IMG/VR virus record: IMGVR_UViG_3300032007_000018
Coordinates: 72,445 to 136,444 of that record
Strand: one strand, 5' to 3'
Source: a virus
DNA: 64,000 bases
Below: the continuation of a report on this DNA, generated by a model with database tools
The DNA itself: not shown here

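What the first reader, a model, noticed from the sequence alone, without database searches (positions are those of the whole stretch)
31250..49250. An 18-kb GC-rich island (about 55 percent GC, versus about 33 percent for the rest) built from about 34 near-identical promoter cassettes, each driving one or two tiny genes
The unit repeats with remarkable regularity: gene, then a GC palindrome with an invariant CCCGGG (usually gCCCGGGc), then the A-tract GATTGTTAAAAAAnTAAC..TTTTnAAAAAA, then cTTGACA, 17 bp, TGcTATAcTATAAT, then AAAGGAGAT and ATG.

-35 boxes lie at about 31621, 32127, 32524, 32811, 33078, 33294, 33634, 33994, 34647, 35209, 35597, 36340, 36871, 37442, 38096, 38905, 39038, 39598, 40066, 40441, 40671, 41269, 42577, 43657, 44206, 44612, 45394, 45537, 46225, 46578, 47264, 47825, 48622 and 49008.

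The coding sequences are GC-rich while the promoters and UP elements are AT-rich, so composition alternates on a 100-500 bp scale. This is an extreme case of a one-gene-one-consensus-promoter early region and looks like a host-takeover or anti-defence gene arsenal. The compositional break from the structural module suggests either acquisition from a high-GC source or deliberate codon and TAG avoidance.
Basis: seen in the sequence. Interest (0 to 1): 0.85.

Follow-up and report, generated by a model that had tools for sequence, protein, structure and literature searches.

The report, continued
Noticed in passing
window 40559-40600; also L013 ~14338, L037 ~2211 and ~8587, L017 ~12325: A conserved CU-rich RNA tail, TTTCTAATCTCCTTTCTATTCCTCTCTTTCTGTG, follows the tRNA-Lys. 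In L013 and L037 it follows the ~330-nt ORF-less RNA instead. It contains a 10-13-nt perfect complement of the array's consensus leader and SD (AGAAAGGAGAT). It could be an anti-SD RNA that titrates early mRNAs or ribosomes. Predicted pairing favours early over late leaders only slightly (-17.8 versus -15.4 kcal/mol).
   Followed up: partly
window 38935-39015, 45425-45515, 46255-46535, 40095-40425; 35 instances in 13 loci: These are promoter-driven transcripts without ORFs. They start with a conserved TTGTTCCAAGGG or TGTCAAG(A/G)GG right after the -10, are 65-330 nt long, and often lie just upstream of the promoter of the winged-helix gene. They have no Rfam match and are candidate new small RNAs.
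   Followed up: partly
window 40483-40558; L013 11715-11790; L035 6448-6535 and 8874-8947; L036 7223-7298: tRNA-Lys (CUU or UUU) sits inside the early promoter arrays of four lineages, and tRNA-Tyr in one. By my recollection, tRNA-Lys and tRNA-Tyr are the tRNAs cut by known anticodon-nuclease defences. The phage's capsid-like genes use AAG for 92% of Lys codons.
   Followed up: partly
window 32364-32385, 32773-32794, 33546-33567: A 22-bp perfect palindrome, TTGTTAGTTAATTAACTAACAA, with stop codons in all six frames, follows canonical terminators in the first part of the array. Related GTTA-N6-7-TAAC and GTTAGC-N-GCTAAC palindromes occur upstream of many promoters here and in relatives. They look like operators for another dimeric protein.
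   Followed up: no
L015 ~12900; L017 ~6700, ~10700, ~11370: Sequences resembling the Gram-positive SOS (Cheo/LexA) box (my recollection of the consensus, CGAACnnnnGTTCG) lie between CCCGGG and the UP element of some early promoters in relatives. One example is CGAACATCTGTTCG. This hints at host LexA control of part of the array.
   Followed up: no
window 34485-34566; L034 ~1906, 4936, 7130, 8867, 11394, 13470; L028 ~12856, 17004: This is a recurrent mini-unit: a consensus promoter followed directly by a GC-only hairpin (GGCCGGCC..GGCCGG or CGGCGCGC..GCGCGCCG), then 100-150 nt later a TAGACA-type promoter flanked by TTGCACAAA..TTTGTGCAA inverted repeats. In the window the promoter is on the minus strand, pointing into the hairpin.
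   Followed up: no
window 31250-31620; L015 ~2500-2570: A 370-nt non-coding, GC- and CA-rich lead-in (CACACGCGCACACGTCCCACACACAGCGCACCACACGCACGCCC) lies immediately before the first promoter of the array. It may be a genome end, a packaging site or an injection-related site.
   Followed up: no
window 28803/28815, 41813, 43111, 49401, 49594, 52253, 11866(-), 1328(-); phAss-1, 17 copies between 3.5 and 125.6 kb: This is a second promoter class with a conserved AT-rich, partly palindromic spacer: TTGACTTTTATAAAAAAATATGTTATAAT here and TTGACAtAAAAAAATTTTTnTGnTATAAT in phAss-1. It heads the late operon and marks the end of the early array in the six relatives inspected. It is probably the middle/late promoter type and a target of a phage factor.
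   Followed up: partly
window 59857-60246: A third paralogue of the 39118/45643 winged-helix-like family lies outside the island. It is GC-rich (GC3 0.67), uses AAG 14 times against AAA 3, and contains no TAG.
   Followed up: no
window 60324-61151 and 23873-24583: A GIY-YIG/NUMOD homing-endonuclease gene at 60324-61151 has 7 in-frame TAG. A second ORF on the minus strand at 23873-24583, whose N-terminus resembles a GIY-YIG motif by eye (not scanned), has 6-7 in-frame TAG. Mobile endonuclease genes in this phage would then also be written in the recoded dialect.
   Followed up: partly
window 12989-13984, 18065-19171, 19190-20206: The three most capsid-like late genes contain no TAG at all, prefer CAG and AAG, and have higher GC than their neighbours. 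The most highly expressed late genes therefore avoid the recoded codon.
   Followed up: partly
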